A DNA stretch of 64,000 nucleotides from a virus. The translations under genes were made by a program, and so were the position numbers. Where the stretch lies: IMG/VR virus record IMGVR_UViG_3300010413_000011, positions 1 through 64,000 of that record; one strand, 5' to 3'. The notes beneath the pieces were generated by a model. That model was given only the letters and a program-made list of their open reading frames with translations, searched no databases and was not told where the DNA came from. Shown here piece after piece: positions 37,216-56,814 of this stretch (the stretch's first letter is position 1; the number at the start of each line of letters is the position of its first letter).

Positions 37216-37729
37216 CAAAGTAATAGACTTTATAGAAACTGATTTACCAAGGACCTACTATCCCGAAGGTGGGGTCTCTCCTGAACAATTACAACCGAAC
37301 GGAGTCGACTGTCGTTTATTTTTTGTAAGGAGAGTCGACCCGGATCGTATTATGATATTTCGTAAAAATGAGAAGGATGTACCAGAGCTGGAGATGGTCG
37401 AACCTATAATCCATAGGTCCTTTCATGAGCGCGACAAACAACACGCCTTTTTCAATTTGGAACCTGGGGCCTATAATTTTGAAATGGCCGAACGAATAAA
37501 AGTTCCTCAAGGTATTGCGGCAATGTTCTTTGGTCGGAGTACCCTTAACCGAAACGGAATACTCCTTTTGTCGTCGGTCTATGATACGGGTTATGACGGT
37601 AGAATAGGAGGGACGGCGTATGTCTGGCGGCGGATACAAATAGAAATGTTTGTTCGAGTCGGACAAATTGTTTGTTGGGAAGCTCACGAAACGAAGGAGT
37701 ATGACGGTCAATATGGCGACGGAAAGTAA
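37199..37729 (+). CDS. dut: Trimeric dUTPase (dCTP deaminase-like fold)
   Basis: QLQPNGVD, GRSTLNRNG and YDTGYDG; the deaminase catalytic Glu is not evident; RBS before ATG 37199. Confidence 0.8.
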   Translation: MILPGNKVIDFIETDLPRTYYPEGGVSPEQLQPNGVDCRLFFVRRVDPDRIMIFRKNEKDVPELEMVEPIIHRSFHERDKQHAFFNLEPGAYNFEMAERIKVPQGIAAMFFGRSTLNRNGILLLSSVYDTGYDGRIGGTAYVWRRIQIEMFVRVGQIVCWEAHETKEYDGQYGDGK

Positions 37730-40313
37730 ATGGCATAAGACTTCAATCGATCTTACTAGAAGTAAGCAGGGTCGTAAGACCTGTTTGAAGTGTCCTTGGT
37801 TTAAAAAGTTCGAGCAGGGAAAAACCGATTCGATCAACTTTTGTGTTGGCGGATACGGTTTAGTACCTGCCGATGTAATGATTGTTGGTGAGGCCCCGGG
37901 TTGGCCCGAGGCTAATGCGCGACCTCATCAACTTCATCCTTTCATGGGAGAGGATTCCTATATATTAGATTTCCTATTAAAAAAAGCAGGACTATCTCGT
38001 CGACAATTCTATATAACTAACGCTATCAAATGCAAACCTCTTCAATATGGCAAAGTCCCGATCGATATTGTTAACCGTTGTGCCTCACATCTTTGGTACG
38101 AAATAGAAATGGTTCAACCTAAATTAATAATTGCTCTAGGTGCTGACGCTCTCAAAGCCTTGACAGGTAGACCATTTTCGATAACACAGGAAAGAGGATT
38201 CAGGCGAACGTTTAGTGACTTCGTCAATTTAGAGAGAATAGGACTAGCTGAATCTAATTGGTCGGATCTCGAGGACGATTTCGGAGACATTTGGGTTTAT
38301 CCGATGAGACATCCTCATTTACTTTATAAAGATCCTAGATGGTTATCTACTTTTAAGTTCGACTTTAAAGAAATAAAACGGTTGATGAGAAAAGGATTTC
38401 CCGACCATAACGAACCACCTAAGATTAAAGTTACCGATACTCTAGAACGTTTCGAAGAATTCTATAAGGCGATTCAGAAGGCACCGGCTTACTCGGTCGA
38501 TACTGAAACGACCTCCACTAGTATGATTGATGCCAAAGCTCTCTGTATCTCCTTTTCATGGGGTAGAAAAAATACCTGGGTCGTACCACTGAGGGGCCAA
38601 GGAGGAAAAAGATTTTGGCAATCTGGTGCCGATGAAATTATTCGGAAGGACCTAAAACAAATTTTTAAGGAGAAAAATATTTATCGTATTGCTCAAAATT
38701 TTAAATTTGATTATAACGTTCTCCGGAAGGAAGGATTCGGTGAGGTTTATTTTGAGTTCGACACAATGACTGCTCATCACGTTATCGACGAGACCGGTCC
38801 TTACGATTTAGAAAATATTGCCAACTTTTACGGACTCGACCTTGGTTATTGGCCAGATTCGATTTGGAAATATACTCCTCGGAATAAAAAAGCTCAGTTT
38901 GCTGACATTCCAAATAAGATTCTCTGGCAATATACCGGAGTTGACGCGTGGACTACTTGGGAACTAGGTAAGCCGAACGGTGGTAGAGTTAGGACTGAAT
39001 TAGAGAAGAACCCTAATTTAGTTCGACTGGTTAAAGAAGTTACCTTCCCACTTTCTTATCCGTTAGCAGATATGGAATACTATGGAGTCAAGTTAAACCT
39101 AGATCGAATTGGGAAATTGGAAAAATTATATCAGAAAAAATTGGATATGATAACTGGTAGACTCCGCGTACTAGCGAATAAAGAAGATTTCAATCCCTTT
39201 TCTCCCGATCAAGTTATAGAATTACTATTCAATAAGTTGAAGATGACTACTAGAGGACTAACACCTGGTCGCAAACCAAAGACCGATGCCGATGTACTAG
39301 AGATAATGTTAAGAGAGGAACGGTCGCCCAAAAAGAGAACGATCCTTCGTCTCATAATTTTAGCTCGAAGTTACAGAGCAACAATTTCTAGAGAATTACA
39401 AGGGCTCCGAAAATTGGCTCCAGACGGAAATATAAGAACGACCTATTTGATTCCAGGAACCAGAACTGGTCGTCTCTCTTCAATAGGTCCCGACTTACAA
39501 AATGTCAAACGCGGTCCTGAAATCAGAAATTGTTTTACAGTAGAAGAGGACTCATTATTTGGAGGCGGTGACTACAAGGCGATAGAACTTCGACAAGCAG
39601 CGTTGTTAAGTGGTGACCCGGAGATGTTAGATATCTTTGAGAAGGGTATAGATTTTCATACAGTCACGACAGCTCGAGTTCGTAAAATACCAGAGGAGGA
39701 AGTTACCAAAGAACAGAGAGCACGAGGAAAAGCGGTTGTGTTCGGTGGAATAATGTATGGTAGATCGATTCAAACAATGGCCGACGAATATGATTTACCA
39801 TACGAAGAAGTAGAAGATATGATGGATGGAATAGCCGAGTTGTACCATGTATTCATGAAATGGCGTGAAAGCAATGTACGAGAGGCGAAAGAAAAGTTTT
39901 ATTTGGAAACGGCTTTTTGGAAACGGACTAGACATTTCCCTGCTTTCGAGATGATCGCGGATAGTAGATTGGCTAAGGTTCAGAGATTAAGGAATCAGTT
40001 AGGTCGCGAATTCAAACAGACGGTAGAGAAAACTGTTCGAGAATGTTACAATTATAGGATTTCCTCGCCGGCTGCCGATTGGGTTAATAAAGGAATTATT
40101 AGGCTTCATACTCGACTTCGCGAAGAGAATATGAAAACCTATTGTTTAATGCAAGTTCATGACGCGCTGTATTTGAGAGTATTTAAAAAAGAAGTTTTAT
40201 TCGTTAAACAGTTGATTAAAGAGGAAATGGAAACCACCTTGAGGTATAAAGGCAATAGACTTAAATTAGAATTTGATACTGAAATGGGAAGGTGTTGGGA
40301 TGAAAAAGAGTGA
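37701..40313 (+). CDS. polA: Family A DNA polymerase with N-terminal family-4 UDG-like domain (SPO1-like)
   Basis: VGEAPG..TNAIKC; Exo motifs DTET, NFKFD, YTGVD; TGRLSS, DYKAIELR, R...K...F..YG, QVHD. Start uncertain (37701 or 37713). Confidence 0.93.
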   Translation: MTVNMATESKWHKTSIDLTRSKQGRKTCLKCPWFKKFEQGKTDSINFCVGGYGLVPADVMIVGEAPGWPEANARPHQLHPFMGEDSYILDFLLKKAGLSRRQFYITNAIKCKPLQYGKVPIDIVNRCASHLWYEIEMVQPKLIIALGADALKALTGRPFSITQERGFRRTFSDFVNLERIGLAESNWSDLEDDFGDIWVYPMRHPHLLYKDPRWLSTFKFDFKEIKRLMRKGFPDHNEPPKIKVTDTLERFEEFYKAIQKAPAYSVDTETTSTSMIDAKALCISFSWGRKNTWVVPLRGQGGKRFWQSGADEIIRKDLKQIFKEKNIYRIAQNFKFDYNVLRKEGFGEVYFEFDTMTAHHVIDETGPYDLENIANFYGLDLGYWPDSIWKYTPRNKKAQFADIPNKILWQYTGVDAWTTWELGKPNGGRVRTELEKNPNLVRLVKEVTFPLSYPLADMEYYGVKLNLDRIGKLEKLYQKKLDMITGRLRVLANKEDFNPFSPDQVIELLFNKLKMTTRGLTPGRKPKTDADVLEIMLREERSPKKRTILRLIILARSYRATISRELQGLRKLAPDGNIRTTYLIPGTRTGRLSSIGPDLQNVKRGPEIRNCFTVEEDSLFGGGDYKAIELRQAALLSGDPEMLDIFEKGIDFHTVTTARVRKIPEEEVTKEQRARGKAVVFGGIMYGRSIQTMADEYDLPYEEVEDMMDGIAELYHVFMKWRESNVREAKEKFYLETAFWKRTRHFPAFEMIADSRLAKVQRLRNQLGREFKQTVEKTVRECYNYRISSPAADWVNKGIIRLHTRLREENMKTYCLMQVHDALYLRVFKKEVLFVKQLIKEEMETTLRYKGNRLKLEFDTEMGRCWDEKE

Positions 40314-41652: not shown

Positions 41653-42570
41653 ATGATCTTAATTATCGACGGTAACAATGCGGCCTTCAGGGCTAATTCG
41701 GTTCTTACCATGAGTTGGAAGACCAAAAGGACAAGTGCCATTTTCGGAACTTTATCGATAGTTCGGTCAGTCATGAACAGAGTGGATCCTAGTAAAGTTA
41801 TCGTCGTATGGGACATCGGCGGTTCAAAATACCGAAAAAGATTGTTTCCTGAGTATAAAAAGAAACGAATCGAAAAAAGAGATGACGATGATTTCCAAAC
41901 TTTCATCGACCAAGTTCAAATACTCAGAGATCGAATCTTTCCAGTTCTAGGGATTACTCAAGCGGTAAAGTCTGGAGTCGAAGCGGATGATGTTATATAT
42001 CGTCTCGCAAAATACTACTCGGTTAAAAAGGAAAAAGTGATTATACTTTCGGGAGATACCGACTTGTATCAATTGGTGAGCAAACGAGTTTCAATAATCT
42101 CACCTAGTCGGAAACGAAACGATTTTATAACCAATAAAAACTTTACCCGGATTACTAAAGGATTGGATCAAGATCAATTTGTGTCATACAAAATGTTAGT
42201 CGGAGATCCTTCCGATGGTATCCCGGGCGTACCAGGTTTCGGTGACAAAACTTCTCGTGTGGCCTTGGGACACTATAAGTCGGCAGAGGAGGCGGTCGAG
42301 CATTATGACGAACTGGTTAAACTGATGCCTCGGATTGCCAGATATGTAACCAGTAAGAAGGCAGAGAGTATCGTTGACCGAAACCGAAAATTAATCGATT
42401 TAAGTATCTACAATCGACCGAAACGGGTAAAGGCTTCAACGAAATTATTAATTGAGTCTGAACTAAATGAACAGGAATTTCGAAAAATTTGTAAAGAGTT
42501 CGGGTTCGTTTATATACTATCTAATTTTATGGATTGGATTGAACCATTCAAAGAGTTGGACAGGGGGTGA
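41653..42570 (+). CDS. 5'-3' exonuclease/flap endonuclease (T4 RNase H-like)
   Basis: IIDGNN, YK..R, EADDVI, SGDTD, GDPSDGIPGVPGFGDKT. Confidence 0.92.
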   Translation: MILIIDGNNAAFRANSVLTMSWKTKRTSAIFGTLSIVRSVMNRVDPSKVIVVWDIGGSKYRKRLFPEYKKKRIEKRDDDDFQTFIDQVQILRDRIFPVLGITQAVKSGVEADDVIYRLAKYYSVKKEKVIILSGDTDLYQLVSKRVSIISPSRKRNDFITNKNFTRITKGLDQDQFVSYKMLVGDPSDGIPGVPGFGDKTSRVALGHYKSAEEAVEHYDELVKLMPRIARYVTSKKAESIVDRNRKLIDLSIYNRPKRVKASTKLLIESELNEQEFRKICKEFGFVYILSNFMDWIEPFKELDRG

Positions 42571-43550
42571 CCATGTATGGTTATCAAATTTATCTGACCC
42601 ACGGCTGTAATCTGCGGTGTCGGCAATGTGGTGTCTGGAGGGCCAAATCGATCGGTCGGGAAAAACAATGGACCGAATGGGCAGCTATCCTACCGACCAT
42701 GGTCCAGGTTTTCGAGAAAACATTTCATCGGAAACCAGCGTTCAAATTGATGGGAGGCGAACCAACAATTTATCCGGGTTTCGAAGAAGTTTGTAGAGCA
42801 ATTAAAACACTCGGTTGTAATATTTCTGTTCTGTCGAATGTTAGTAAAACCTGGCAGTGGGAAATGTTGACTCGAGTTTTGGGAAAAGGGGATTCAATTT
42901 TCGTTTCAATGGATTTCTTTCCGAATAGAAGGAAACAATATGAGATGAGATCCGATCCGGCAGAAGAGAAGGCTTTTGCTGCCCTCCATTTCATCGAGAC
43001 CTTTCCCGACAACCAAACCGATTTCGAGGTCGGCGTAAATATTACGGTATCTTCGGATACCTTGCCTAGATTATCTGGCCTTATTGATTGTTTGGTTCAG
43101 TTGAACGCTAAGATGAATATTTGTCTTCGGCAAGGCAGCGAACCGAATGAGGACGAACTCTACCACGTTCTTAGGGCACCGAATCGAACTGGCAATTTAA
43201 ACCAGGAGGAGGTCGACCAGTTAGTCAAAATTATGCTATCCGACTTATTGCCAGTTCCAGATCTTTTTCTCGGATCAAAGGAATACATTAGGATAATTCA
43301 GGTTCACGGAGCGAATAACGATTGGCATTGTAGAGATCAACTCCACCTTCCGTATATTTATTTGGATTGCGATGGTTCGGTAATGGCGTGTCCAGACGTC
43401 GCCTTACCAGATCCTCAGGTTTTACCTTTAGCGAGTCCGACTCCTTTTGTTTGGACCGAGAGGATGTTGAAGACCTATCGTGCCAAATGTTGTGGCTGTA
43501 CTATTTCGTCAGCGATGACCGATGTTGTCGCAGCACTCTGGGAGAAATAA
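42567..43550 (+). CDS. Radical SAM enzyme with SPASM/Twitch-like C-terminus
   Basis: LTHGCNLRCRQC, GGEP, C-terminal HC..LDCDGSVMAC..CCGC. Confidence 0.85.
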   Translation: MTMYGYQIYLTHGCNLRCRQCGVWRAKSIGREKQWTEWAAILPTMVQVFEKTFHRKPAFKLMGGEPTIYPGFEEVCRAIKTLGCNISVLSNVSKTWQWEMLTRVLGKGDSIFVSMDFFPNRRKQYEMRSDPAEEKAFAALHFIETFPDNQTDFEVGVNITVSSDTLPRLSGLIDCLVQLNAKMNICLRQGSEPNEDELYHVLRAPNRTGNLNQEEVDQLVKIMLSDLLPVPDLFLGSKEYIRIIQVHGANNDWHCRDQLHLPYIYLDCDGSVMACPDVALPDPQVLPLASPTPFVWTERMLKTYRAKCCGCTISSAMTDVVAALWEK

Positions 43551-43551
43551 A

Positions 43552-45462
43552 ATGATACTTTCTGCTCCTAAAATTGCCCATATTGGCTTGGACAATCGAG
43601 TTTACCAAACTCATTGCCTTCATCCGAAAAATTTTTTACAATTTTTGGGAGGGCGAGGATTGAACAGTCATCTGACTTTTCAAAACCGCTCTATTAATTT
43701 CCCGATGGTTTTTATTACTCCAGGGTTGTTGACTGGAACTCTGTGTCCATCGTCGTCTCGCTGTACTATTGGTACTAATATATCACCCTCTTTAGGAAGA
43801 TGGGCTGATGGGAATCTCGGAGGATTTTTTGGAGCTGAACTAAGAAGAGCAGGTTGGAATCAAATTTGGTTAGAAGGTATTTCCGAAAAACCTATTTTAA
43901 TATATATTGAAAACCAAAAAATAAAAAGTGTTGACGCTGGTAATCTTTGGGGACTCGGAGTTCATGACACAACTGAGAGAATCCGAGAAGAGTTTGGGCC
44001 GGACGCTCAGTCTCTTGTAATCGGGCCGGCCGGAGAAACCCAGGTCGCGTACGCCTGCGTTATGTCGGGCGATAGAGCGGCAGGAGGAGGCGGTATTGGT
44101 GCCGTCCTCGGGAAAATGAAAGTCAAGGCGATCGTTGTTCGGGGAACTAGAGGTCTTGAACCTGCCCAACCCGAGGAGTTTATGGACGCTTGTCTGGCGG
44201 CTCATAAACAAGTTCGATCGAATCCTTTGTTCGGTGAGTTTTCACAATCTGGTACTTCAATTATTACATCCATTTATAAAGGAGTCAAAGCACTACCGGT
44301 TAATTATTGGGATAAAGGAGATTCGCCACACGCTTACAAATTCGAACCAGGAAATTTGAAGACGAAAGTTGTAAAAAGTCGAGCTTGCTATGGTTGTTCG
44401 ATTCATTGCTCTCATGAACTTACTTTCGGGTTCGAAGGGGTAGAGTACGAGGCGTTGAACGGGCTCGGTCTTAAAATTGGAATCACCGATCTAGACGAAT
44501 GCCTTCGTTTGATAAAATGGTTCAACAACCTGGGTCTCGATGTAGTCCAGACCTCTGGCGTTCTAGGTATGTTGATGAAAATGACCGAAGATGGCTTCGC
44601 GATGAATATGGATCGAATTAAATTTGGAGATGCTGAGGCTATTTGGACGCGAGTTGCTAGTTGGATGGATAGTAGAAGAAGAGATCTCAGTTTTTGGAAT
44701 GGTCTTGACGCCGGGTTCGAAAGATATTCTGAGATATTTCCTCCAGGTCCTGACGGAAATAAGGGCGATGTTCTTAAACGATTCCGTCGAAAGTATTCGG
44801 TCGATATTAAAAATTCAATGCCACCCAGCCTAGACTTCAGGGTTCCAGAAAACTTTGCGGCTACTATTGCTTGTATGACGGCTACTCGAGGCGCTGACCA
44901 TCTTAGAAGTTTGGCACCGATTGAGGCCTACGGTCAGTGGTACGGGAGAGAGGATCTCGAGGCGATGGCTATTCATTTTGGAATACCATCTGATATTATG
45001 AAAGAATGGTTGGACCTGGACGGGTTCGATCCTAAAATAAATTCGAAAAGTATAAGAGGAAAGGTTGCTATCATTTCTTACTTTCAAGATCAAAATGCTG
45101 TGACCGATGCCCTGGGTCTTTGTCGATTCGCCTCAAGTTGGAGAATGGGAGTCGGCCTCGAGTTGATGGCGGAGATGGTTTCGACTTTTCTTGGTATAGA
45201 TATGAACTGGTGTGGCCTGCGAGCAGTGGGCCAGAGGATAACCGTCTTAGAAAGATATCTGAACTCGAAAGTGTACGGCATGAATAAGTTCAGTGATTAT
45301 CCTCCCGAGAAATTTTTCGTAGAGCCTTTGAATGGGAGGAATCAACTCTCACATCATGACGTAAGATCAGCCCGCGATCAGTTCTATGAGTATAACGGAT
45401 ATGACGAGCAGGGATGTCCGACACCGGATACTTTTGAAAAATTAGGATTGGTTGTCAAATGA
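43552..45462 (+). CDS. aor: Aldehyde:ferredoxin oxidoreductase family (W/Mo-pterin) large subunit
   Basis: GGRG, SSR..SP, IGPAGE, GAVLG..KAIVVRG, CYGCSIHC, EYE, GLD, RGADH, DALGLCRF, GYDEQGCPT. Confidence 0.9.
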   Translation: MILSAPKIAHIGLDNRVYQTHCLHPKNFLQFLGGRGLNSHLTFQNRSINFPMVFITPGLLTGTLCPSSSRCTIGTNISPSLGRWADGNLGGFFGAELRRAGWNQIWLEGISEKPILIYIENQKIKSVDAGNLWGLGVHDTTERIREEFGPDAQSLVIGPAGETQVAYACVMSGDRAAGGGGIGAVLGKMKVKAIVVRGTRGLEPAQPEEFMDACLAAHKQVRSNPLFGEFSQSGTSIITSIYKGVKALPVNYWDKGDSPHAYKFEPGNLKTKVVKSRACYGCSIHCSHELTFGFEGVEYEALNGLGLKIGITDLDECLRLIKWFNNLGLDVVQTSGVLGMLMKMTEDGFAMNMDRIKFGDAEAIWTRVASWMDSRRRDLSFWNGLDAGFERYSEIFPPGPDGNKGDVLKRFRRKYSVDIKNSMPPSLDFRVPENFAATIACMTATRGADHLRSLAPIEAYGQWYGREDLEAMAIHFGIPSDIMKEWLDLDGFDPKINSKSIRGKVAIISYFQDQNAVTDALGLCRFASSWRMGVGLELMAEMVSTFLGIDMNWCGLRAVGQRITVLERYLNSKVYGMNKFSDYPPEKFFVEPLNGRNQLSHHDVRSARDQFYEYNGYDEQGCPTPDTFEKLGLVVK

Positions 45463-46079
45463 GAAAAGAACGAATTAAAAGTCTATGGAGTCATCTTACA
45501 TCGACACCGGTCGAAATCGTTCGAGGTTTTTCTCGTGCCGTTGTTTTGGTGACAAGGCAGTTAATCCTTTTAGAGAATCCTGTAGAAAGGATCTTACCGA
45601 AGTCAGCGCTCCTCTGTTCTTTTCAGCCTAAAAAACTTTCATACGAAAAGGCTGACTCATACCTGGGTTTCCTCCTAACCAAAAGGATTAGAGTCGATTA
45701 TACTAAATGTACGGGCTGTAAGGCATGCGAGTTGGCGTGCTCTTTAAACCATTACGGACGCTGCGAACCCGAGGAATCGAGAATCAGAATTGACCGACAA
45801 TGTAAAAAGTCGGCAGAGTTCTTTCCTTTCGTTTGTCAACACTGTACGATGCCCGAATGCGTTGTGGTCTGCCCGTCTGGAGCTTGTACGAGAACAAAAG
45901 AAGGTCTCGTAGTCGTAGACCCGGAACTTTGTATTGGTTGTAAACTTTGTATAATCGTTTGTCCGCTGAGTTCAGCGGCATGGAATTGGAGATTAGGTCA
46001 ATCGATGAGATGCGATCTTTGCGAAGGTGAACCGGTCTGTGTCAAGGTTTGCTCGACTAAGGCCATCGATTTTCATTGA
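45459..46079 (+). CDS. 4Fe-4S multicluster electron-transfer subunit (AOR partner)
   Basis: CTGCKACELAC, CQHC..PECVVVCP, CIGCKLCIIVCP, CDLC..PVCVKVC; ATGA overlap with the AOR stop. Confidence 0.9.
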   Translation: MRKERIKSLWSHLTSTPVEIVRGFSRAVVLVTRQLILLENPVERILPKSALLCSFQPKKLSYEKADSYLGFLLTKRIRVDYTKCTGCKACELACSLNHYGRCEPEESRIRIDRQCKKSAEFFPFVCQHCTMPECVVVCPSGACTRTKEGLVVVDPELCIGCKLCIIVCPLSSAAWNWRLGQSMRCDLCEGEPVCVKVCSTKAIDFH

Positions 46080-46379: not shown

Positions 46380-47957
46380 ATGAAATGGAATGAAGGAATC
46401 TTTAAGGCAAGAGAATTTCCAGACGAGCCGTTGAGTATGTTTTCTTGCCTAGCGGAATTGTGTAATTCGCAACCATCGGTCCCCTGGAATTATGCTGGTC
46501 GAATGATTCGAGTAACCGAAAAAGTTTCGATCGACTACGAGATAATGAAATTCGTTCGCGCTTCGGCTGACGATCCCTCTGGATTTAGCCCCGGGTTCAT
46601 ATTCGAGAATGTTTCGAGTGAGATGGCACCAGATCCGAAAACGACTCGATATCCAATCTCTGTTGTCGCTGGAATGTATGGAACCGAGGCACGAGTAAGT
46701 CGTATATTGGATTGGTGTTTAGGAACCAAAGAAAAATTCGACTTAAGTACTCCGGCCTGGCGAAAATATCAGCGAGCGTTGAACAGAACGTCACATGGCG
46801 TGGTTCGGATTTTTCCCGAAAGAGACGACTTAGGTCATGTATACGACATTCGATACGAACTCCAAGACCTTCCGATTTGTCTTCACAACGAAAGAGACGG
46901 AGGTCGATTCATCACCGGAGGTGTCCAGATCGTCTGGGATCCGGAATTCGAATGTTATGTCTCTGGTATTCACCGAATGAAGGTCATCGATAAAAATACT
47001 CTCGGGTGTTTGGCTACCGGCGAAAGAAGGATCGGTAGAGCGATAATGAAATGGCATGAACGAGGATTTAAGGCACCTGTTATTACATTAATAGGAGCCG
47101 CACCTTGCGACGTTTTCGCGTCTCAAGCCAAAGTACCTCATAACACGGATAAGTATGCTGTCGCAGATCGCTTCACACCCGGAAACGAGAAGAGAGATTT
47201 TTGTGGTTGGACTCCTTCCAAACATGCGAAATACGCTCCCGACCACTTACATATTATCCCTACAGATTCTGAAATTGTTATTTTGGGATTAGTTCCATTA
47301 GGCGAACCGAACAAACCAAACCTTATTAACGACAACCCGTTTGGGGAATTTCCTGGTACCTATTCCTTTTCGAATACTTCCGCGGCTTGGAGAGTAGAAG
47401 TAGAATATGTTATGACCAGATCCGACGCACCGATCTATCAAACCATGACCACCGGATTCCCTGTGCTCGAGGATCATATTCTTTGTGGCACGGCGAATGT
47501 TCCTTACCTCTTCGAAATTCTTCAAAGAGCCTGTTCAGAAGTGGTCGATATTAGCTTGGGAAAAGAAGGCAACTATGTTTTCGATGCTCACGTTTCCATT
47601 AAAAAGAGAATGTCTGGCGAAGCGCGCAATGTTATTTTAGCAGCGCTCTCGACCGTCACTATAAAAAGTGTTTGGATATACGACGACGACATCGACGTTC
47701 ATAATCCTCGTGACCGGCAGTTCGCATGGAACACGAGATACCAGCCTGCGACCGATACAATTATTATTGGCCATCCTTTGGTTGGTTCGAGTCTCGATCC
47801 ATCTTGTCCTGTCTTTCGGCACACGACTAAGGTAGGTTTTGACTGTACCAAACCTTTAGGTCAGGAGGATCGATACAAAAAGGCTTTGTGGCCAAAGGAT
47901 GAAATAGAAATCTATTCGAAAAAAGTACTCGATTTAATCGATAAGTGGGAGGACTAA
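46380..47957 (+). CDS. ubiD: UbiD-family (prFMN-dependent) reversible decarboxylase
   Basis: DLP..HNERDGGRFIT, GIHRM, PFGEFPGTY, DDDIDV..FAWNTR.QP..D, LDPS, KVGFDCTKP. Confidence 0.9.
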   Translation: MKWNEGIFKAREFPDEPLSMFSCLAELCNSQPSVPWNYAGRMIRVTEKVSIDYEIMKFVRASADDPSGFSPGFIFENVSSEMAPDPKTTRYPISVVAGMYGTEARVSRILDWCLGTKEKFDLSTPAWRKYQRALNRTSHGVVRIFPERDDLGHVYDIRYELQDLPICLHNERDGGRFITGGVQIVWDPEFECYVSGIHRMKVIDKNTLGCLATGERRIGRAIMKWHERGFKAPVITLIGAAPCDVFASQAKVPHNTDKYAVADRFTPGNEKRDFCGWTPSKHAKYAPDHLHIIPTDSEIVILGLVPLGEPNKPNLINDNPFGEFPGTYSFSNTSAAWRVEVEYVMTRSDAPIYQTMTTGFPVLEDHILCGTANVPYLFEILQRACSEVVDISLGKEGNYVFDAHVSIKKRMSGEARNVILAALSTVTIKSVWIYDDDIDVHNPRDRQFAWNTRYQPATDTIIIGHPLVGSSLDPSCPVFRHTTKVGFDCTKPLGQEDRYKKALWPKDEIEIYSKKVLDLIDKWED

Positions 47958-47958
47958 A

Positions 47959-48363
47959 ATGGCAAAGAAGAAAAGTTTAAACAATAGGGAAAGGGAAATC
48001 GGACGTAAGTTAGGAGTTACCCGGAGGGCTGAACACGACTATGCGACAGAGTTTGATCCTTTCGAACAAGGATACCGAGAGTCCATGGAACACGAGTCTG
48101 ACGAATTCAAATACGTTCTGCCCGGATGTTTCGGTAGGATGAATTTTTGGCCTCCTCGAGAAGAGTTGAAGGCCGTGTCTGGCATGGACGAAGGTTTCGT
48201 AATTCAAAAGGGAGTTGCTCAGTATTTGGAAGGTGAGAGACAAGCCGGGATTGTCAAAAAGTGTTTAGGTTGTTCTCAATACCAGCGATGTGCTTTGGCT
48301 ACCGTAGTTGGTAAAACTTCCTCAATCCGAGAGAAAACTAAACCTACTCCCGTAGACGAATAA
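47959..48363 (+). CDS. Hypothetical Cys-containing protein
   Basis: GGGAGG RBS; PGCFG...CLGC....C motif. Confidence 0.6.
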   Translation: MAKKKSLNNREREIGRKLGVTRRAEHDYATEFDPFEQGYRESMEHESDEFKYVLPGCFGRMNFWPPREELKAVSGMDEGFVIQKGVAQYLEGERQAGIVKKCLGCSQYQRCALATVVGKTSSIREKTKPTPVDE

Positions 48364-48383
48364 TTTTTGAGACAGGAGGAATT

Positions 48384-49349
48384 ATGAAAATCGAATTAAT
48401 GCGCCACACGGTTGAACCAGAAGAGCTGTTGGAAGAACTGGTAGAGCTTAGTTACCGGACGCAACACTTCCCGAAACACCCTGCTCTTGTCGAATTTAAG
48501 AGTGGTCGTCAAGTTCCTTTGACCCAATTGAAAAATCTTACCATGATTCCGAAACCCGGTACTGTGATCCCTGGGTTTGAAAAAGACGACGTAGAAGTTG
48601 TTAAGGTGATCCCCAGGACAGCAGAGAAGGCAGTCAGGTTCGCCATCGCCATCGGACATTTCGCTTTGTTCCGTCAGGTAACTGTAACCTGGAGAGTCGA
48701 ACTCAGCAGGAAATCTGTTCTTCATTATTTGAGATACCAACATACAGCAGAGAACATGGTGTCACAAAAATACCTCGACCAAGGTCAGTTCGAATTTATA
48801 ATGCCGACAACCCGAGATTATCCTCCCGAGGAACTCATGGTCTATAAAGAAGCAATGCAAACGATTCAGTCATATTATGAACGCCTTCGGAATTTCGGCT
48901 GGGACCCGGAGGATGCTCGACTGGTTTACCCGAACTCTGCTCTTCAAAAATTTATCTTCACCGCTAATATGGAAACCATGCGTCGGCTATTTGATATCCT
49001 ATGCGACGAGGACTACGTCGATGAGATGCATCGGTTCGGTTTGGCCATGTTGGCTACCATTAAAAAAGTTATGCCAGCGTTCGTATATGATTACAGATTC
49101 TATTCGAGGAATGACGACGGACATATTTATGCGAAGCGTCGGAGAAGAAAAGGTGGAGACAACGTTAAAGTGAATTGGACTGATCCGAATTGGATGGAGG
49201 AAGATGAGAAACGAGAAACCGACGAAGTTTGTCGACTCCAAGAAAAAATACCTAATGAGTTAATAAATTTTGCGAATGAAGGTCAACGATTCTTCACTGT
49301 AGTTCCTGAAAACGAAATTCCAGAACCGGAACATTGGGAAACAGAATGA
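48384..49349 (+). CDS. ThyX-fold flavoprotein with non-canonical active-site motifs
   Basis: GH......T, SR, RYQ-X7-SQKY (canonical RHR-X7-S.RY), EDARLVYPN, TAN. Confidence 0.75.
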   Translation: MKIELMRHTVEPEELLEELVELSYRTQHFPKHPALVEFKSGRQVPLTQLKNLTMIPKPGTVIPGFEKDDVEVVKVIPRTAEKAVRFAIAIGHFALFRQVTVTWRVELSRKSVLHYLRYQHTAENMVSQKYLDQGQFEFIMPTTRDYPPEELMVYKEAMQTIQSYYERLRNFGWDPEDARLVYPNSALQKFIFTANMETMRRLFDILCDEDYVDEMHRFGLAMLATIKKVMPAFVYDYRFYSRNDDGHIYAKRRRRKGGDNVKVNWTDPNWMEEDEKRETDEVCRLQEKIPNELINFANEGQRFFTVVPENEIPEPEHWETE

Positions 49350-49525
49350 AAGTAGTCGCAACACAACTAAAACTCGAGAACATAGAAATTCTCCACAATG
49401 CGAAGAAGGGAGATACGCTCTCCCTAAAAATAATTAATACGCAGGAAGTGCCACTTGATGAAGACGGACTCGACCCAGACAGCTGTCTCTTGGTTCTCTT
49501 CGGACGATTGGGAACCGGGAACTAA
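49346..49525 (+). CDS. Small hypothetical protein
   Basis: ATGA coupling to the ThyX-like stop; overlaps the start of the next gene. Confidence 0.4.
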   Translation: MKVVATQLKLENIEILHNAKKGDTLSLKIINTQEVPLDEDGLDPDSCLLVLFGRLGTGN

Positions 49526-50597
49526 CGATAGAATAGGTTTTGAAAAAGTTTGCAATAAAGGAGTGCGCCGAGACACTTACAACGGTTTATACTTTAAGGG
49601 TGGATCAGGCGCCTCTGAATTTTTCAAAACCGAGCCAGATCAAAAGCAGATCAAAATTCATCGAACCAAGATCTTCTTAACCACTACTCGAGCACAACAC
49701 ATGTGGGGCCTTCTCGACGCGAACTACCCTTACATTTTAATGTCGTTTTGGTACTACAAGACCGTGACAAATGTTTTCGGTTCCCTCCGGAATGCCTTTG
49801 CTGCTCGAGATAAAAACATCGACGATTTCGAAATTATGGTAGATAGCGGCTCGTACAGTGCTACGGTCAAAGGTACCTCGGTAGATCTGGATACTTATAT
49901 TGAATGGCTCTACCACGAAGAGGATAATGTCGATTGGTATGTTAACCTCGATACTCAGTTCAAACCAGAAGAGGGACTTCGAAACTGGGCGATCCTTTGT
50001 GCGAACGGATTACATGACGCCATTCATGTCCACCATAGACCAGAGCCTTGGAAGTACTGGGATATTATAGCAGATCATTGTGGAGAGTTTGGAGGTCTTA
50101 GTCCGATGCCTCGAGCAAAGAGAGGCGTTAAACTCGAGTACTTTACCAAAGCTCATTCAATGCACCCACAGAAGAAACTTCATTGGTTTGGCTCTGTCGA
50201 TAAAGAGTTGGCCAAAATGTTCGATGTATATTCTATGGACTGCTCGAGTGCTGACGCGGTCGCTTATCGCGGGATTGTTTGGACTCCTTGGGGAGCGGTT
50301 AACCTGGGTTTTAACCCGAACTACAGTAATCACATTGATCGCTTACCTCTTGACATCCGCTCTAAGGTCACCGAATGGTTTATGACACATGGTTTTGAGC
50401 TTCATGATTTAAGGCCCGGGAGACCCTATATGCCTTCGCATAGATTCAGAATTTATTTCAACGCACTGGGTTATCTCGCGTCCATGGTCGAGATTGAAAA
50501 AGAGAAAAGTTTAATTGAGTTACCAGATCCAGAATGGATTCGGTCTTCGGAAATTTATACTAATTATGAAAGTGAGTTACCAAAAGGATGGAAGTGA
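49458..50597 (+). CDS. dpdA: DpdA/TGT-like DNA base-exchange transglycosylase (paralogue 1)
   Basis: LMSFWY, IMVDSGSYS, YVNLD, HVHH, GLS, LHWFG, YSMDCSS. Confidence 0.75.
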   Translation: MKTDSTQTAVSWFSSDDWEPGTNDRIGFEKVCNKGVRRDTYNGLYFKGGSGASEFFKTEPDQKQIKIHRTKIFLTTTRAQHMWGLLDANYPYILMSFWYYKTVTNVFGSLRNAFAARDKNIDDFEIMVDSGSYSATVKGTSVDLDTYIEWLYHEEDNVDWYVNLDTQFKPEEGLRNWAILCANGLHDAIHVHHRPEPWKYWDIIADHCGEFGGLSPMPRAKRGVKLEYFTKAHSMHPQKKLHWFGSVDKELAKMFDVYSMDCSSADAVAYRGIVWTPWGAVNLGFNPNYSNHIDRLPLDIRSKVTEWFMTHGFELHDLRPGRPYMPSHRFRIYFNALGYLASMVEIEKEKSLIELPDPEWIRSSEIYTNYESELPKGWK

Positions 50598-50824
50598 TGG
50601 CAACCTCGTATTTTAGAGGTCACAAAGGTTGGTACGACAATATTGAAAAAGTATGGAAGTATTTCGATACCAATCTTCCTATCGATCCTCGTCGCCCTTG
50701 TGTCCGATGTGGTAAAGAACCCACTCCCGAAGGTCATGACGCGTGTTTGGGACGGCTAGACGGTGCGTGGTCAGCCTGTTGTGGTCATGGAGTAATAGAA
50801 CCATATTTAAAAATTACATTATGA
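50597..50824 (+). CDS. Small Cys/His-rich phage protein
   Basis: FRGH..RPCVRCG..GHDACLG..ACCGHG. Confidence 0.6.
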   Translation: MATSYFRGHKGWYDNIEKVWKYFDTNLPIDPRRPCVRCGKEPTPEGHDACLGRLDGAWSACCGHGVIEPYLKITL

Positions 50825-51843
50825 GAAACCCTACAACATTTAAAGTCGGAACCGGTCGAGTCATGGTCCCGCACGATCACAAAAAGACTCGACTTTTTCT
50901 TGCCGTTAGTAACATGACAAGTTTTAGACCGATCGTCCGCTATACCTATCCATATCTTTTGATGAGTTATGCCTTTCTGAGAAGGTGGTGTCGGAGTTGG
51001 CGCTGTAACTCGATGAAGGAACTCTTTGCTTTATATGGTGGTGACATTCGAGACTTCAAAATAATGATTGACAGCGGTTCCTATACAGTCACGACTAAAG
51101 GAATTAATATAACAATTGACGACTATATAGAATTCCTATATGAAGAATGGGGTTCCTATAATTGGTATGTCAATTTGGATCTCCAATTTAAACCCGAAGT
51201 TGGCCTCGAGAACTATTTAATAATGTGCGCCAACGGCCTTCACGACGCAATTCATGTTCATCACCGACCGGAACCCTGGAAGTATTGGGATATGATTTGT
51301 AACGATATGGGTCCGTATGCCGGGCTCAGTCCCATGCCCAGGGCTTCAATGACGATCAAGAGAGAATATTTTTTGAAGGCCCATTCAATGCATCCCGATG
51401 TAAAAGTTCATTGGTTTGGGTCTGGCGCAATAACATTAATCAAACAGTTCGGTCCTTACTCTGTAGATGTTTCCTCTTATACTCAGATGGCTGGAATGGG
51501 TCATTGCTATTTTCCTTTTGGTACTTTCTACTTTGGTAGAAATACTTCGATTAAAAATTATTATGGAAACCTCGATAGTTCAATTCGAAAACAAATAAGA
51601 AAGTATCTCAAAACCGTTCCCCATTTTGTCGAAGATCGATTTATTAAACCCGAAGATCTGTTGTCACCAGTTCAAGATGAAACGGAAGCTCGTACCGCAG
51701 TCAATGTATGGTACTTCATGACTCATCTTCAATCGGCAATAAACGAAGAAAGAAATCTTTTGTCTCTTGAGGATGGTGACTTAATTCGCTACTCACCGTG
51801 GTATCACGGATGGGAAGATAAACCAATAGAGAAATGGAGTTGA
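50821..51843 (+). CDS. dpdA: DpdA/TGT-like DNA base-exchange transglycosylase (paralogue 2)
   Basis: LMSYAF, IMIDSGSYT, YVNLD, HVHH, GLS, VHWFG, YSVDVSSY; long identical blocks shared with paralogue 1. Confidence 0.75.
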   Translation: MRNPTTFKVGTGRVMVPHDHKKTRLFLAVSNMTSFRPIVRYTYPYLLMSYAFLRRWCRSWRCNSMKELFALYGGDIRDFKIMIDSGSYTVTTKGINITIDDYIEFLYEEWGSYNWYVNLDLQFKPEVGLENYLIMCANGLHDAIHVHHRPEPWKYWDMICNDMGPYAGLSPMPRASMTIKREYFLKAHSMHPDVKVHWFGSGAITLIKQFGPYSVDVSSYTQMAGMGHCYFPFGTFYFGRNTSIKNYYGNLDSSIRKQIRKYLKTVPHFVEDRFIKPEDLLSPVQDETEARTAVNVWYFMTHLQSAINEERNLLSLEDGDLIRYSPWYHGWEDKPIEKWS

Positions 51844-51846
51844 AAA

Positions 51847-53961
51847 ATGACAGAATTGAATCCAAACGTTGTAACGTTATTGAAAAAAAGATACCTAAAA
51901 ATAAAAGAGGACGGATCACAAGAAACACCCGACGAGATGTTCGAGCGCGTTGCCAAACACGTCGGTGGCGCTGTATCCGTTGGAGCTTGGGAAGTGTTTA
52001 AATCAGTCCTCTGCGAATGGGATAGCGCCACAACTTATTTCGAAGAAGTAATAAAAAGTTTACATTTTATGCCTAGCACCCCTTGTTTGATGAATGCCGG
52101 TTCTCCAAACGGTCAACTATCTGCCTGTTTTGTTTTGCCGGTCAAGGACACCTTGTTAGGACCTGGGTCGATCATGGGAACTCTCCAAGATATGGTAGCC
52201 GTTCATCGATCTGGCGGAGGGACCGGATTCGATTTCTCTAACACAAGGCCGAAAGGAGCAACAGTTTGGTCGACCGGAGGGAAGACGGATGGACCTCTGG
52301 CATGGATTTCAATTTACGATGAGGCGTCTGAAGCTGTCAAACAAGGCGGTAAACGACATGGTGCGAATATGGGAATCCTAAGTATCCACCATCCCGACAT
52401 ACTCAGTTTTATAAAAGCTAAACAAGAAAGTGGCAAGTACGAAAATTTCAATTTTAGCGTTGCCGTTACAGACGAGTTTATGGACATGCTAAAAGAAAAT
52501 CCTGGTGAAAACTGGTCTGCGTTTTTCGATAACGGGGATGAATTGATTCGCGAGGAGTTCAATGTTGGTGAACTCTGGAATTCACTTTGTCAATCGGCGT
52601 GGGAGAGCGGTGAACCAGGAGTTTTCTTCATTGATGTCGTTAACGAATTTAATCCTTTTGAGGAAAAAATAACTTCGACCAATCCGTGTGGTGAACAACC
52701 TTTGTTACCGTATGAGTCTTGTAATTTAGGTCATATTAATTTGTCGAAGTTATATGATCCTAATGGCGAAGACTTTATTAATCATGAGTCATTCAGAAAA
52801 CTTTGTTGGTTGGCAGTTTTATTTCTTGACTCTTGTATTGACATCAATTGTTATCCAATAAAACAAATTGAGACCGCTACCTTCAACACAAGAAAAATAG
52901 GAGTTGGAGTTTTAGGCTTTGCCGATTTATTATTGAAGGCAGGAGTACCTTACTCTTCTGATCGAGCTGTCGAAATTGCAGATGTGATTGCTTCGTCTCT
53001 TACCAGATATACAGATCAAGCATCAACAGTTCTCGGTAAAGCTCTAGGTAACTACCCTGCCGTCGTTATGTGTAAAGATGTAAGTCGAAGAAAACACTTT
53101 CCGAAACGGCGAAACCTTACAACAACTACGATCGCTCCAACGGGCATTACTTCTTGGATATGTGGTGCTTCGTCAGCTATTGAACCGGTGTTCGCTTGGG
53201 AAACAGACAAATATGTTCTCGAGCAGACTATGAAAGAGGTTCATCCTATCTATAAAAAATGGCGTGAAGAGAATCCTCCTAATACAGTAAATTTACCAGA
53301 ATATTTTGAAGTCGCTCACGACATACCGGCCGAGCAACATGTTAAGGTCCAAGCGGCTTTTCAAAAACATATTCACTCGGGAGTATCGAAAACAATTAAT
53401 CTCCCCGAGTCGGCAACGCCCGAAGACATTTCAAACATTTATAAATTTGCTTGGGAATTAGGATGTAAGGGAGTTACGATCTACCGAGATATGAGCAGAG
53501 ACAATCAGGTACTTGCTAAAAAAGGTTCTCGGATTAAACAAGTCGACGTAGAACGACCGGATTCAATACCAGGAGAAATTCATAAAATTCAGGTAGACAT
53601 TGGTAAGGAGAAATTATCTAACGTTTATTGTGCGGTCGGTTTCAAAGAACAGGGTGTACCATTCGAGGTTTTCATAATTGCTCATCCAAAAGGAATGAAA
53701 GATGTTCAATTTATGGAAACTCTTACTCGATGCGTTTCTCTCTGCCTAAGATATAAAGTTCCCCTGCCCTCCCTTATTAAACAGTTGAAAAAAGTAGAGG
53801 GTACAGCCCTGGGTTCTCTACCGACTGAAATTGCTCGAGTCCTCGAGTTGTATACAGAGAACCCGACCTGGGTTTGTCCAGAATGTAATTGTCGACAACC
53901 GATCGAAGGAATCACTCGGTGTCGAACTTGTAGGAATTGTAATCACCAAGAGTGCGGATAA
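51847..53961 (+). CDS. nrdJ: Class II (B12-dependent) ribonucleotide reductase
   Basis: [57 protein letters not shown]; C-terminal extension with Zn ribbon; no small subunit gene nearby. Confidence 0.92.
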
Positions 53962-55881: not shown

Positions 55882-56814
55882 ATGGGAGGTATTTTCGATG
55901 GCAAGAAGCGATGGCATGTTCCAGATACGAAACCTAAGAATCTGAAAGAGTTATTACCGAGAACATCGATCAATAAAAAAATCGGTATATTAATTCAATA
56001 CCGGAACCGATGTCATTACGTTGAGATGTGTTTAACTCGCATCTTAGCGAACACTACTTATCCTTGGAGGAACATTAGTCTTGTGTTAGTCGACGACGAC
56101 TCTGACAATTGGGTTACGGAACGAATCGCAGCCCTTGTCGAACAACACCACGAAAAACGAATAAGACTAATTAAAAATAAAAAAAGACGAGGCACGACGC
56201 CTTCGTTTATCGATTTCCTAGAGGAGTATTCTGATCATGACTTTCTAGTCAAGTTAGACAGCGACCTTCTGGTTTGCCGAGGATGGTTATCGGCCGCGGT
56301 CGATTGGCTAAACAAACATCCTGACGTATCGCTCGCCAATTTTAGGCTGACTTACTTAGCAAGGGAACCAAAACCGGACGACCCATGGATTACATACCTT
56401 GACAATTTGAACGGTGCTCTTATTTTTCGGAACTCCTTAATTCCTTTAATCGATATGACCACCGATGGGAAATGGGAGTTCTGGACGGACGCCAATTGGC
56501 AAAGAAAATTGAGTAGCGAAAATCATTTGTTGGCGATCATGCCGATCGACGTCGAGCACATAGATGGTACTCCGGTATTCGGTGCCTTTGGTTCAGTTTG
56601 GGAGAAGGGTCCTCACCCGTTGTGGTTAGGCAACCGGCAAAATAAATTGGAGGGTACCGAGCAGATTGGACCAATTTTTACGAACCAACTCGAGTCCTAT
56701 GCGGACTTCAATCCAGAGGACGCCTGGCCTCGAGCACGAGAAATTCGGCATGGTAAGCGAATGGGCGAGTATCAACTAAAAGTTAAGGCACGAGAAGGAG
56801 AACTCATTAAATGA
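55882..56814 (+). CDS. GT2-family glycosyltransferase
   Basis: LVDDDSD, KLDSD (DxD) and D...H motifs. Confidence 0.8.
   Translation: MGGIFDGKKRWHVPDTKPKNLKELLPRTSINKKIGILIQYRNRCHYVEMCLTRILANTTYPWRNISLVLVDDDSDNWVTERIAALVEQHHEKRIRLIKNKKRRGTTPSFIDFLEEYSDHDFLVKLDSDLLVCRGWLSAAVDWLNKHPDVSLANFRLTYLAREPKPDDPWITYLDNLNGALIFRNSLIPLIDMTTDGKWEFWTDANWQRKLSSENHLLAIMPIDVEHIDGTPVFGAFGSVWEKGPHPLWLGNRQNKLEGTEQIGPIFTNQLESYADFNPEDAWPRAREIRHGKRMGEYQLKVKAREGELIK

What the first reader, a model, noticed from the sequence alone, without database searches (positions are those of the whole stretch)
48384..49349. ThyX-fold enzyme with substituted dUMP/FAD-binding motifs
Seen: the scaffold is ThyX-like, but RHR-X7-S.RY is RYQ-X7-SQKY, H.S..EH is HFALFRQ, and N.R....F...R is NMETMRRLFDIL, so both Arg residues are lost. 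The catalytic Ser and EDAR..P are kept. Established: these arginines bind dUMP and FAD in ThyX. Inference: probably not a normal thymidylate synthase. It may act on a different base or nucleotide, or stop at a hydroxymethyl product. It lies just upstream of the DpdA-like pair.
Basis: partly seen in the sequence, partly recalled or inferred. Interest (0 to 1): 0.75.

Follow-up and report, generated by a model that had tools for sequence, protein, structure and literature searches.

The report
Phage ThyX with rebuilt base pocket
An uncultivated phage carries a flavin-type thymidylate-synthase relative that keeps its one-carbon-transfer core but has replaced the residues that grip and activate uracil, so it probably modifies a different nucleotide for the phage's unusual DNA.

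Summary
ORF 48384-49349 (+, 321 aa, AGGAGG before the ATG) is a Thy1/ThyX-fold protein. It passes Pfam (82.9 bits) but scores 53.1 bits against the thyX equivalog cut-off of 87.9.

It is not a lone oddity. Thirteen members form a monophyletic clade on the longest internal branch of the ThyX tree, under strong purifying selection. All come from metagenomic phage contigs. None is in cultured phages, other IMG/VR contigs or GTDB genomes.

The clade keeps the flavin, C1-transfer and phosphate-site residues (T. maritima H53, R78, S88, Y91, E144, R147 and the 'SR' Arg). It has lost the uracil-activating R174 (0/13 against 137/139 ordinary ThyX). R90 is always Lys. Most contacts to the ADP part of FAD are lost. 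New invariant residues appear (H114, D204, Y211, SGR, KDD).

My reading (0.5): a neofunctionalised C1 transferase acting on a nucleoside monophosphate other than canonically activated dUMP. The acceptor is unresolved. An ordinary but divergent dTMP synthase remains possible (0.3).

The DpdA-like pair downstream is not conserved in relatives. UbiD upstream and NrdJ downstream are. The phage also has a DpdA3 homologue.

The scan read this ThyX-like gene twice, in this genome only. It noted the related AOR-transaminase-SLOG-UbiD operon earlier on other DNA.

The parts
48384..49349 (+). ThyX-like ORF, 321 aa (P0001)
   Evidence: ORF. Pfam Thy1 82.9 bits. TIGR02170 53.1 bits, below the 87.9 cut-off. 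AF2 model pLDDT 84.5, pTM 0.80. Foldseek hits are all ThyX.
48374..48379 (+). Shine-Dalgarno AGGAGG, 4 nt before the ATG
   Evidence: Sequence read.
48468..48623 (+). N-terminal insert (about residues 29-80) with clade-invariant SGR (40-42) and KDD (67-69)
   Evidence: Absent from about 135 of 139 ordinary ThyX. The motifs are invariant in 13/13 clade members. Modelled with pLDDT above 90.
48657..48677 (+). H92-FALFRQ, in place of H.S..EH. H53 equivalent kept; E58 is Arg; H59 lost.
48708..48773 (+). Remodelled ThyX motif, residues 109-130: SRK..LH.LRYQ.......SQKY. R109, R117, S127 and Y130 kept. H79 is Tyr, R80 is Gln, R90 is Lys, Q75 is His.
48909..48935 (+). E176-DAR179-LVYPN: E144 and R147 equivalents kept
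48966..49025 (+). Residues 195-214, NMETMRRLFDILCDEDYVDE. R165 is Glu, R174 is Leu206, AQ is Y211-V212. New invariant D204.
49140..49346 (+). C-terminal extension (residues 253-321) beyond the ThyX domain. The first part carries a clade-conserved R...N..VNW motif. The acidic tail is low confidence.
46380..47957 (+). UbiD-family decarboxylase, the conserved upstream neighbour
   Evidence: Pfam and NCBIfam hits. Synteny in L003-L012. Nearest solved structures are HmfF and indole-3-carboxylate decarboxylase.
47959..48363 (+). 134-aa Cys-rich ORF between UbiD and the ThyX-like gene. No family hit.
51847..53961 (+). Class II (B12) ribonucleotide reductase NrdJ, the conserved downstream neighbour in relatives
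49455..51843 (+). Two DpdA-like (phrog_887) paralogues with a 78-aa Zn-ribbon ORF between them. An insertion not seen in relatives.

Best explanation
The gene encodes a neofunctionalised member of the ThyX (flavin-dependent thymidylate synthase) family. It most likely still forms the ThyX tetramer, holds a flavin, and passes a one-carbon (methylene) unit from the flavin N5 to a nucleophilic carbon of a nucleoside monophosphate. The pocket that recognises and activates uracil has been rebuilt, so the acceptor, or the way it is activated and what it becomes, is not that of an ordinary dUMP-to-dTMP synthase.

Shown: the fold, the clade, the residue pattern, the purifying selection and the synteny.

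Inferred: retained flavin and C1 chemistry, a nucleotide substrate, and a changed acceptor.

The acceptor is unresolved. The leading candidates are:
- a pyrimidine dNMP read through the new Asp204/His114 (dCMP-like, or dUMP taken to a non-thymine product);
- a 7-deazaguanine-type compound made by the adjacent UbiD decarboxylase, in a phage that also carries DpdA3.
For: (1) Fold and quaternary structure.
- Pfam Thy1 match, and every top Foldseek hit is ThyX.
- A four-copy model scores 0.73 against a best control of 0.01. The mark was reached by 20 of 30 solved pairs and 1 of 23 single chains. Runs agree in at least 79% of contacts, and partner pLDDT is at least 75. ThyX tetramers are solved, so this pass may come from memory.
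- The predicted interfaces contain 108-118, 124-128, 176-186 and 211/213, which are the active-site segments.

(2) Core residues kept in 13/13 members: H53, R78, S88, Y91, E144, R147 and the 'SR' Arg.
- Papers assign R78 to flavin N1/C2=O, and H53 to stacking on flavin and folate (PMC11940539).
- S88 and Y91 handle the flavin carbinolamine (PMC8316439).
- S88, R90, R147 and the helix His/Arg bind the phosphate (PMC5003785, PMC6514825).

(3) Base contacts replaced.
- R174 is present in 0/13 clade members against 137/139 ordinary ThyX.
- The AQ pair is Y-V in 13/13, and the E86/Q column is Met or Phe.
- R90 is Lys in 13/13, against Arg in 139/139.
- R174 is the residue that activates dUMP by N3 deprotonation (PMC8316439) and binds uracil O2/O4 (PMC5003785).

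(4) Contacts to the FAD tail changed. H79 is Tyr in 12/13. R80 is kept in 1/13. The E58/R165 pair is charge-swapped to R/E in 10/13 with perfect covariation.

(5) It is a functional gene. dN/dS is about 0.08-0.12 where dS is measurable, and dS is saturated elsewhere.

(6) It is a distinct clade. Bit scores run 739/226/187/179/140 and then drop to 70. The clade is monophyletic with support 1.0, and its stem of 0.91 is the longest internal branch, against a median of 0.107.

(7) It scores below the thyX equivalog cut-off.
Against:
- It is the only thymidylate-synthase-like gene in the 92.7 kb held: no ThyA and no second Thy1.
- It sits where phage thyX genes usually sit, next to the RNR. A dCTP-deaminase/dUTPase-like gene and a thymidylate-kinase-like gene lie upstream. 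All of this fits ordinary dTMP supply.
- The new invariant D204, K129 and insert R42 could compensate for R174 and R90.
- The synteny with UbiD comes from related, collinear phages, so it is weak evidence of functional coupling.
Confidence: 0.5

Rival explanations
1. It is a divergent but ordinary thymidylate synthase. It still converts dUMP to dTMP, with D204 (as a general base), K129 and residues of the insert replacing R174, R90 and R80.
For: It is the sole TS-like gene in the record. The conserved ThyX-NrdJ adjacency, the dCTP deaminase/dUTPase-like gene and the thymidylate-kinase-like gene upstream fit a dTMP supply line. The phosphate site and the flavin-side catalytic residues are intact.
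Against: R174 and R90 are kept in 137/139 and 139/139 of the nearest ordinary ThyX but in 0/13 clade members. The R174 column is variable in the clade (L, M, F, G), so it is no longer constrained. The uracil contacts named in PolB and ThyX structures (R193, Q206, E94; PMC5003785) are all replaced by hydrophobic or aromatic residues. The protein falls below the equivalog cut-off and sits on the longest branch in the tree.
Confidence: 0.3
2. It is a catalytically inactive ThyX-fold protein. It would be kept as a nucleotide- or flavin-binding regulatory or scaffold subunit, for example for the neighbouring UbiD or RNR.
For: Many canonical FAD and dUMP contacts are lost. Purifying selection alone does not prove catalysis.
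Against: The residues that act on the flavin N5 adduct (S88, Y91, H53, R78), E144/R147 and the phosphate site are invariant. A mere scaffold would not need them.
Confidence: 0.08
3. It works directly with the adjacent DpdA-like pair, making the base they insert.
For: The gene lies immediately upstream of the pair. The pair matches phrog_887, queuine tRNA-ribosyltransferase.
Against: None of the seven relatives whose downstream gene is visible has a DpdA-like gene there. NrdJ follows instead. The retained phosphate site argues for a nucleotide substrate rather than the free base that TGT-family enzymes use.
Confidence: 0.1

Closest known systems
ThyX / flavin-dependent thymidylate synthase (Pfam PF02511; T. 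maritima TM0449, M. tuberculosis Rv2754c)
   Same: The fold and the predicted tetramer with active-site segments at the interfaces are the same. The H53, R78, S88, Y91, E144, R147 and 'SR' Arg equivalents are kept.
   Different: The RHR motif reads RY(x). SQRY reads SQKY. R174 is hydrophobic. R165/E58 are charge-swapped. H59 is lost. AQ reads YV. There are new invariant residues H114, D204 and Q188, a clade-specific SGR/KDD insert and a C-terminal extension. The score is below the TIGR02170 cut-off.
PolB, the ThyX-family UMP/dUMP C5-methylase of polyoxin biosynthesis (PDB 4p5a; PMC5003785)
   Same: PolB is the known precedent for a ThyX paralogue recruited to make a modified nucleotide. It has His at the helix position that is H114 here. 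The polyoxin pathway also runs through 5-methyl, 5-hydroxymethyl and 5-carboxy uracil nucleotides, which echoes the UbiD/AOR neighbours here.
   Different: PolB keeps R98, R193 and Q206 and still methylates uracil, and its specificity lies in two loops. The phage clade has lost those base contacts. The profile hit to 4p5a is weak (E 3.8e-7).
ThyA-fold dCMP and dUMP hydroxymethylases of phages (T4 gp42, SPO1 gp29). Taken from my own knowledge, not tested here.
   Same: A possible functional analogy: a thymidylate-synthase scaffold re-aimed at another base or product by changing the residue that reads the O4/N3 edge. In the ThyA family that change is Asn to Asp. Here it is Arg174 lost and Asp204 gained.
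   Different: The fold and chemistry are unrelated (Cys Michael addition, no flavin). No ThyA domain is present in the record.

Membership tests
ThyX / FDTS (PF02511, TIGR02170) | Thy1 domain and fold | tested here: met
   Pfam 82.9 bits against a cut-off of 24.8. Foldseek top hits are all ThyX, TM by target about 0.75.
ThyX / FDTS (PF02511, TIGR02170) | ThyX signature RHR-x7-S-x-R-Y | tested here: not met
   It reads RYQ-x7-SQKY. In the clade H79 is kept in 1/13, R80 in 1/13 and R90 in 0/13.
ThyX / FDTS (PF02511, TIGR02170) | The Arg that activates dUMP (T. maritima R174, M. tuberculosis R199) | tested here: not met
   Leu206 here. Present in 0/13 of the clade against 137/139 ordinary ThyX. 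Role taken from PMC8316439 and PMC6514825.
ThyX / FDTS (PF02511, TIGR02170) | Equivalog-level HMM score | tested here: not met
   TIGR02170 scores 53.1 bits against a cut-off of 87.9.
ThyX / FDTS (PF02511, TIGR02170) | Flavin-side catalytic residues (H53, R78, S88, Y91) and E144/R147 | tested here: met
   Invariant in 13/13 clade members.
ThyX / FDTS (PF02511, TIGR02170) | Homotetramer with composite active sites | tested here: inconclusive
   The four-copy model scores 0.73 against a best control of 0.01. The mark was reached by 20/30 solved pairs and 1/23 single chains. At least 79% of contacts agree and pLDDT is at least 75. The pass may come from memory of solved ThyX tetramers.
ThyX / FDTS (PF02511, TIGR02170) | dUMP to dTMP activity, thyA complementation, bound FAD | not testable with these tools
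   This needs expression and an assay.
PolB-type UMP C5-methylase | Retained uracil contacts (R98, R193, Q206) plus PolB Loop 1 and Loop 2 tyrosines | tested here: not met
   The equivalent columns are K129, L206 and V212. The hit to 4p5a is weak. The PolB loops were not examined column by column.

The most novel reading that the evidence does not exclude
The clade is the first ThyX-fold enzyme whose acceptor is not uracil. On this reading it transfers a flavin-borne methylene to the electron-rich C7 of a 7-deazaguanine species, or to C8 of a guanine nucleotide. Such a carbon needs no activating arginine. The acceptor would be released by the neighbouring UbiD decarboxylase. Together with the AOR-family enzyme (plus a transaminase and a SLOG protein in relatives), it would form a QueC/QueF-independent route to the base that the phage's DpdA3 puts into DNA. 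A variant of this reading is that the AOR supplies the aldehyde or formaldehyde that loads the flavin.
Probability: 0.15. Interest if true: 0.85.

Novelty: new variant of a known kind. Interest (0 to 1): 0.6.

Why it matters
ThyX is known as a thymidylate synthase, with PolB as a near-identical uracil methylase. A conserved, selected clade that keeps the flavin C1-transfer core but discards the uracil-activating arginine would widen the chemistry of flavin-dependent methylene transfer to a new acceptor or product.

It would also add an enzyme to the set phages use to build non-canonical DNA. These phages carry a DpdA3 transglycosylase, but no FolE, QueD, QueE or QueC in the sequence held. They carry UbiD, UbiX and a tungsten-type oxidoreductase instead. 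The protein is small and soluble-looking, and the hypothesis can be tested directly with standard assays.

Tried and rejected
Contexts came from the search for related loci on metagenome contigs instead.
- Scans with the clade profile found no further member in IMG/VR viral contigs or GTDB genomes. tblastn found none in cultured phages.
- Scans for the UbiD in viral contigs also found nothing, with a single protein or with a profile.
- The small ORF between UbiD and the ThyX-like gene is conserved among relatives. It is not detectably related to the window's 134-aa ORF.
- DpdM, the known preQ1 methylase, was checked as a possible identity. It is DUF3109, not ThyX-fold.
- The Pfam DHO_dh hit of 36400-37215 (E 3e-4) was rejected in favour of DpdA3.
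- Promoter and terminator scans across 42-54.5 kb gave no more sites than shuffled sequence.
- Two papers on R174 kinetics (PMC4744818, PMC5939375) are not held.
I could not check whether R42, K67 or D204 reach the active site.
- The ESM Atlas gave only generic Thy1 clusters.

Full report
**What is there**

The window is the first 64 kb of a 92.7-kb IMG/VR virus record, with a CheckV completeness estimate of 68%. The ORF at 48384-49349 (+) encodes 321 aa. An AGGAGG sits 4 nt before its ATG.

It matches Pfam Thy1 over residues 5-232 (E 3.2e-23, 82.9 bits). It scores only 53.1 bits against NCBIfam's thyX equivalog, whose cut-off is 87.9. An AlphaFold2 model built on a 67-row alignment has mean pLDDT 84.5 and pTM 0.80. 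Every top Foldseek match in the PDB is a ThyX (M. tuberculosis 2af6, E 3e-13, TM by target 0.75).

HMMER alignments to M. tuberculosis, C. glutamicum and T. maritima ThyX place them on the canonical motifs. One refinement: the first His of H.S..EH (T. maritima H53) is retained.

**A clade, not a one-off**

An exhaustive HMMER search of 1.84 billion representatives found 755 ThyX relatives. Only four scored far above the rest: 226, 187, 179 and 140 bits, followed by a drop to 70. A scan of metagenome contigs added eleven loci with 38-46% identical proteins.

In a tree with 139 ordinary ThyX representatives, the 13 members long enough to include form one clade. Its support is 1.0, and its stem of 0.91 substitutions per site is the longest internal branch, against a median of 0.107.

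Synonymous sites between members are saturated while dN is 0.08-0.35. Where dS could be estimated, dN/dS is 0.08-0.12. The gene is therefore under strong purifying selection. No member was found in cultured phages, other IMG/VR contigs or GTDB genomes.

**What changed and what did not**

I mapped columns to T. maritima numbering through the HMMER alignment, then counted 13 clade members against the 139 nearest ordinary ThyX.

Kept in 13/13:
- H53, R78, S88, Y91, E144 and R147
- the Arg of the 'SR' motif (M. tuberculosis R87)

N163 is kept in 12/13.

| T. maritima position | Clade (13 members) | Ordinary ThyX (139) |
|---|---|---|
| R174 | 0/13 (L, M, F, G) | R in 137 |
| R90 | Lys in 13/13 | R in 139 |
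| R80 | kept in 1/13 | R in 133 |
| H79 | Tyr in 12/13 | H in 132 |
| H59 | 0/13 | H in 128 |
| Q75 | His in 13/13 | Q in 120, E in 18 |
| E86 column (Gln in most ThyX) | Met or Phe | Q in 113 |
| 'AQ' after R174 | Tyr-Val in 13/13 | A in 129, Q in 115 |

The E58/R165 pair is E/R in 125 of 139 ordinary ThyX. In the clade it is R/E in 10 of 13 and E/R in the other 3. This charge swap with perfect covariation implies a retained salt bridge.

Residues invariant in the clade and rare or absent elsewhere include SGR40-42 and KDD67-69, which lie in an N-terminal insert that most ThyX lack. Others are K110, L113, H114, N124, Q133, Q188, D204, Y211 and V212. A few ordinary ThyX with intact motifs carry an insert at the same place (P0007, P0010). 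The insert itself therefore predates the remodelling.

**Reading the pattern against published structures**

The kept residues have known roles:
- R78 faces flavin N1/C2=O. H53 stacks on the flavin or folate and is held by Y91 and N85 (PMC11940539).
- S88 and Y91 act on the flavin N5 carbinolamine, with R90 beside Y91 (PMC8316439).
- In PolB and ThyX complexes the nucleotide phosphate is bound by the helix Arg/His, S88, the next backbone residue, R90 and R147 (PMC5003785). M. tuberculosis R87 also contributes (PMC6514825).

These are retained or conservatively changed.

The lost residues also have known roles:
- R174 'activates dUMP by deprotonation of N3' (PMC8316439). Together with the AQ Gln it binds uracil O2/O4, and E86 binds the sugar O3' (PMC5003785). 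These are all replaced.
- The RHR His and Arg, M. tuberculosis S71 and R190 bind the FAD phosphates and ribityl (PMC6514825). These are mostly lost.

My inference is that the flavin ring site, the C1-transfer machinery and the phosphate site survive. The base pocket and the grip on the ADP part of FAD have been rebuilt.

A four-copy model supports a ThyX-like tetramer:
- The score is 0.73 against a best control of 0.01. The mark was reached by 20 of 30 solved pairs and 1 of 23 single chains.
- At least 79% of contacts agree between runs, and partner pLDDT is at least 75.
- The pass may be from memory, since ThyX tetramers are solved.
- The predicted interfaces hold segments 108-118, 124-128, 176-186 and 211/213.

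**Context**

Around the gene lie, in order:

| Coordinates | Gene |
|---|---|
| 42567-43550 | radical SAM protein |
| 43522-45462 | AOR-family oxidoreductase |
| 45459-46079 | 4Fe-4S protein |
| 46380-47957 | UbiD |
| 47959-48363 | 134-aa ORF |
| 48384-49349 | ThyX-like gene |
| 49455-51843 | two DpdA-like paralogues (phrog_887) |
| 51847-53961 | NrdJ |

The radical SAM protein is weakly like the tungsten-cofactor oxidoreductase maturase TIGR04317.

In the relatives the order is gp32, AOR, class-V aminotransferase, SLOG-like protein, UbiD, small ORF, ThyX-like gene and NrdJ. RecA follows later, and L012 also has PolA and UbiX upstream. The aminotransferase is nearest to aldehyde-type enzymes such as BhcA, PhnW and pyridoxamine-pyruvate transaminase.

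In the seven loci where the downstream gene is visible, NrdJ is the next recognised gene and no DpdA-like gene lies between. The DpdA-like pair is thus an insertion peculiar to this phage. The conserved neighbours are UbiD and NrdJ. These phages are collinear relatives, so the synteny is only weak evidence for functional coupling.

Other relevant genes in the record:
- UbiX lies at 89085-89567.
- The record holds no ThyA, second Thy1, QueC, QueD, FolE or QueE.
- Upstream of PolA lie a thymidylate-kinase-like gene (35795-36403) and a dCTP-deaminase/dUTPase-like gene (37175-37729).
- Between them lies a 271-aa protein (36400-37215) that is a DpdA3 homologue.

The DpdA3 assignment rests on tblastn. 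The 271-aa protein hits Cellulophaga phage phiST CGPG_00065, the Campylobacter CP220 group, and the 'DNA guanine transglycosylase' of the Flavobacterium immuto phages. These are exactly the proteins named DpdA3 in PMC10516641. L010, a relative, has the same gene next to its PolA.

**Interpretation**

The most likely reading (0.5) is a neofunctionalised flavin-dependent C1 transferase acting on a nucleoside monophosphate. Its base is not recognised or activated as uracil is in ThyX. I cannot name the acceptor. Two candidates stand out.

- **A pyrimidine dNMP.** The loss of the O4/N3-reading Arg and the gain of an invariant Asp recall the Asn-to-Asp switch that re-aims ThyA-fold enzymes to dCMP (my own knowledge, not tested here). 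The kinase, dCTP-deaminase-like and RNR genes fit synthesis of a modified base at the nucleotide level.
- **A 7-deazaguanine-type compound.** The carbon that a UbiD enzyme decarboxylates is by nature a nucleophilic carbon. It would attack a flavin-borne methylene without needing an activating arginine. The UbiD here is nearest to heteroaromatic acid decarboxylases (HmfF, indole-3-carboxylate decarboxylase). The phage also has DpdA3.

The main rival (0.3) is that this is still the phage's dTMP synthase, with D204 acting as a base on N3 and K129 and insert residues compensating. Its position, and its being the only TS-like gene held, favour this rival. The near-universal retention of R174 and R90 elsewhere, the unconstrained R174 column in the clade, and the wholesale change of the uracil contacts count against it.

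An inactive scaffold (0.08) is unlikely, given the invariant catalytic-side residues.

**Comparison and novelty**

The protein belongs to the Thy1 superfamily but fails the family's signature motif, the activating Arg and the equivalog score. I therefore do not file it as a thymidylate synthase.

The closest functional precedent is PolB, a ThyX paralogue that methylates UMP for polyoxin biosynthesis. PolB keeps all the uracil contacts (PMC5003785). DpdM, the known preQ1 methylase, has an unrelated fold. I found no paper describing a ThyX clade of this kind or linking ThyX with UbiD or AOR in phages.

I rate it a new variant of a known kind. It is interesting to enzymologists and to those who study phage DNA modification, but its function is still undemonstrated.

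**Earlier scan notes**

This same stretch was read twice in this genome. A related AOR-transaminase-SLOG-UbiD operon was noted earlier on another genome and tied there to DpdA3. I recovered that operon independently in L003-L012 and verified a DpdA3 homologue here and in L010.

Noticed in passing
window 36400-37215 (+); L010 2980-3798: A 271-aa protein that Pfam only weakly calls DHO_dh is a DpdA3-family DNA transglycosylase homologue. tblastn hits Cellulophaga phiST CGPG_00065, the Campylobacter CP220 group, and the Flavobacterium immuto phages' 'DNA guanine transglycosylase' (E down to 5e-16). It lies just before the dCTP-deaminase-like gene and PolA, and it is present in a relative too.
   Followed up: yes
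L003, L005, L007, L012 (e.g. L003 961-6569): Relatives carry AOR, a class-V aminotransferase (aldehyde-type: nearest to BhcA, PhnW and pyridoxamine-pyruvate transaminase), a SLOG/YpsA-like protein and UbiD. This window instead has AOR, a 4Fe-4S protein, an 86-aa ORF and UbiD. The relatives' set suggests a carboxylate/aldehyde/aminomethyl series on one substrate.
   Followed up: partly
window 42567-43550 (+): The radical SAM protein overlapping the AOR start gives weak hits to the tungsten-cofactor oxidoreductase rSAM maturase (TIGR04317), viperin-like and NrdG families. It may mature the AOR rather than act on a nucleobase.
   Followed up: partly
window 37650-40313 (+): The family A DNA polymerase carries an N-terminal UDG-superfamily domain (PF03167, E 4e-19) ahead of its 3'-5' exonuclease and polymerase domains.
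   Followed up: no
G000 89085-89567 (beyond the window); L012 2459-3046: A UbiX flavin prenyltransferase is encoded by the phage, far from UbiD. In relative L012 it sits between PolA and gp32.
   Followed up: partly
window 35795-36403 and 37175-37729 (+): A thymidylate-kinase-like gene (phrog_2107) and a dCTP deaminase/dUTPase-like gene flank the DpdA3 homologue. A weak phosphoribosyltransferase-like hit lies at 35163-35645 (-).
   Followed up: partly
window 55882-56814 (+): A GT2 glycosyltransferase lies between RecA and a calcineurin-like phosphoesterase (Mre11-like). It could decorate a hydroxymethylated base if one is made.
   Followed up: no
window 47959-48363 (+): A 134-aa Cys-containing ORF between UbiD and the ThyX-like gene has no family hit. 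Relatives have an unrelated but mutually conserved 80-108-aa ORF (YR..KYYAEK...ERYKNRVRVVDC) at the same place.
   Followed up: partly
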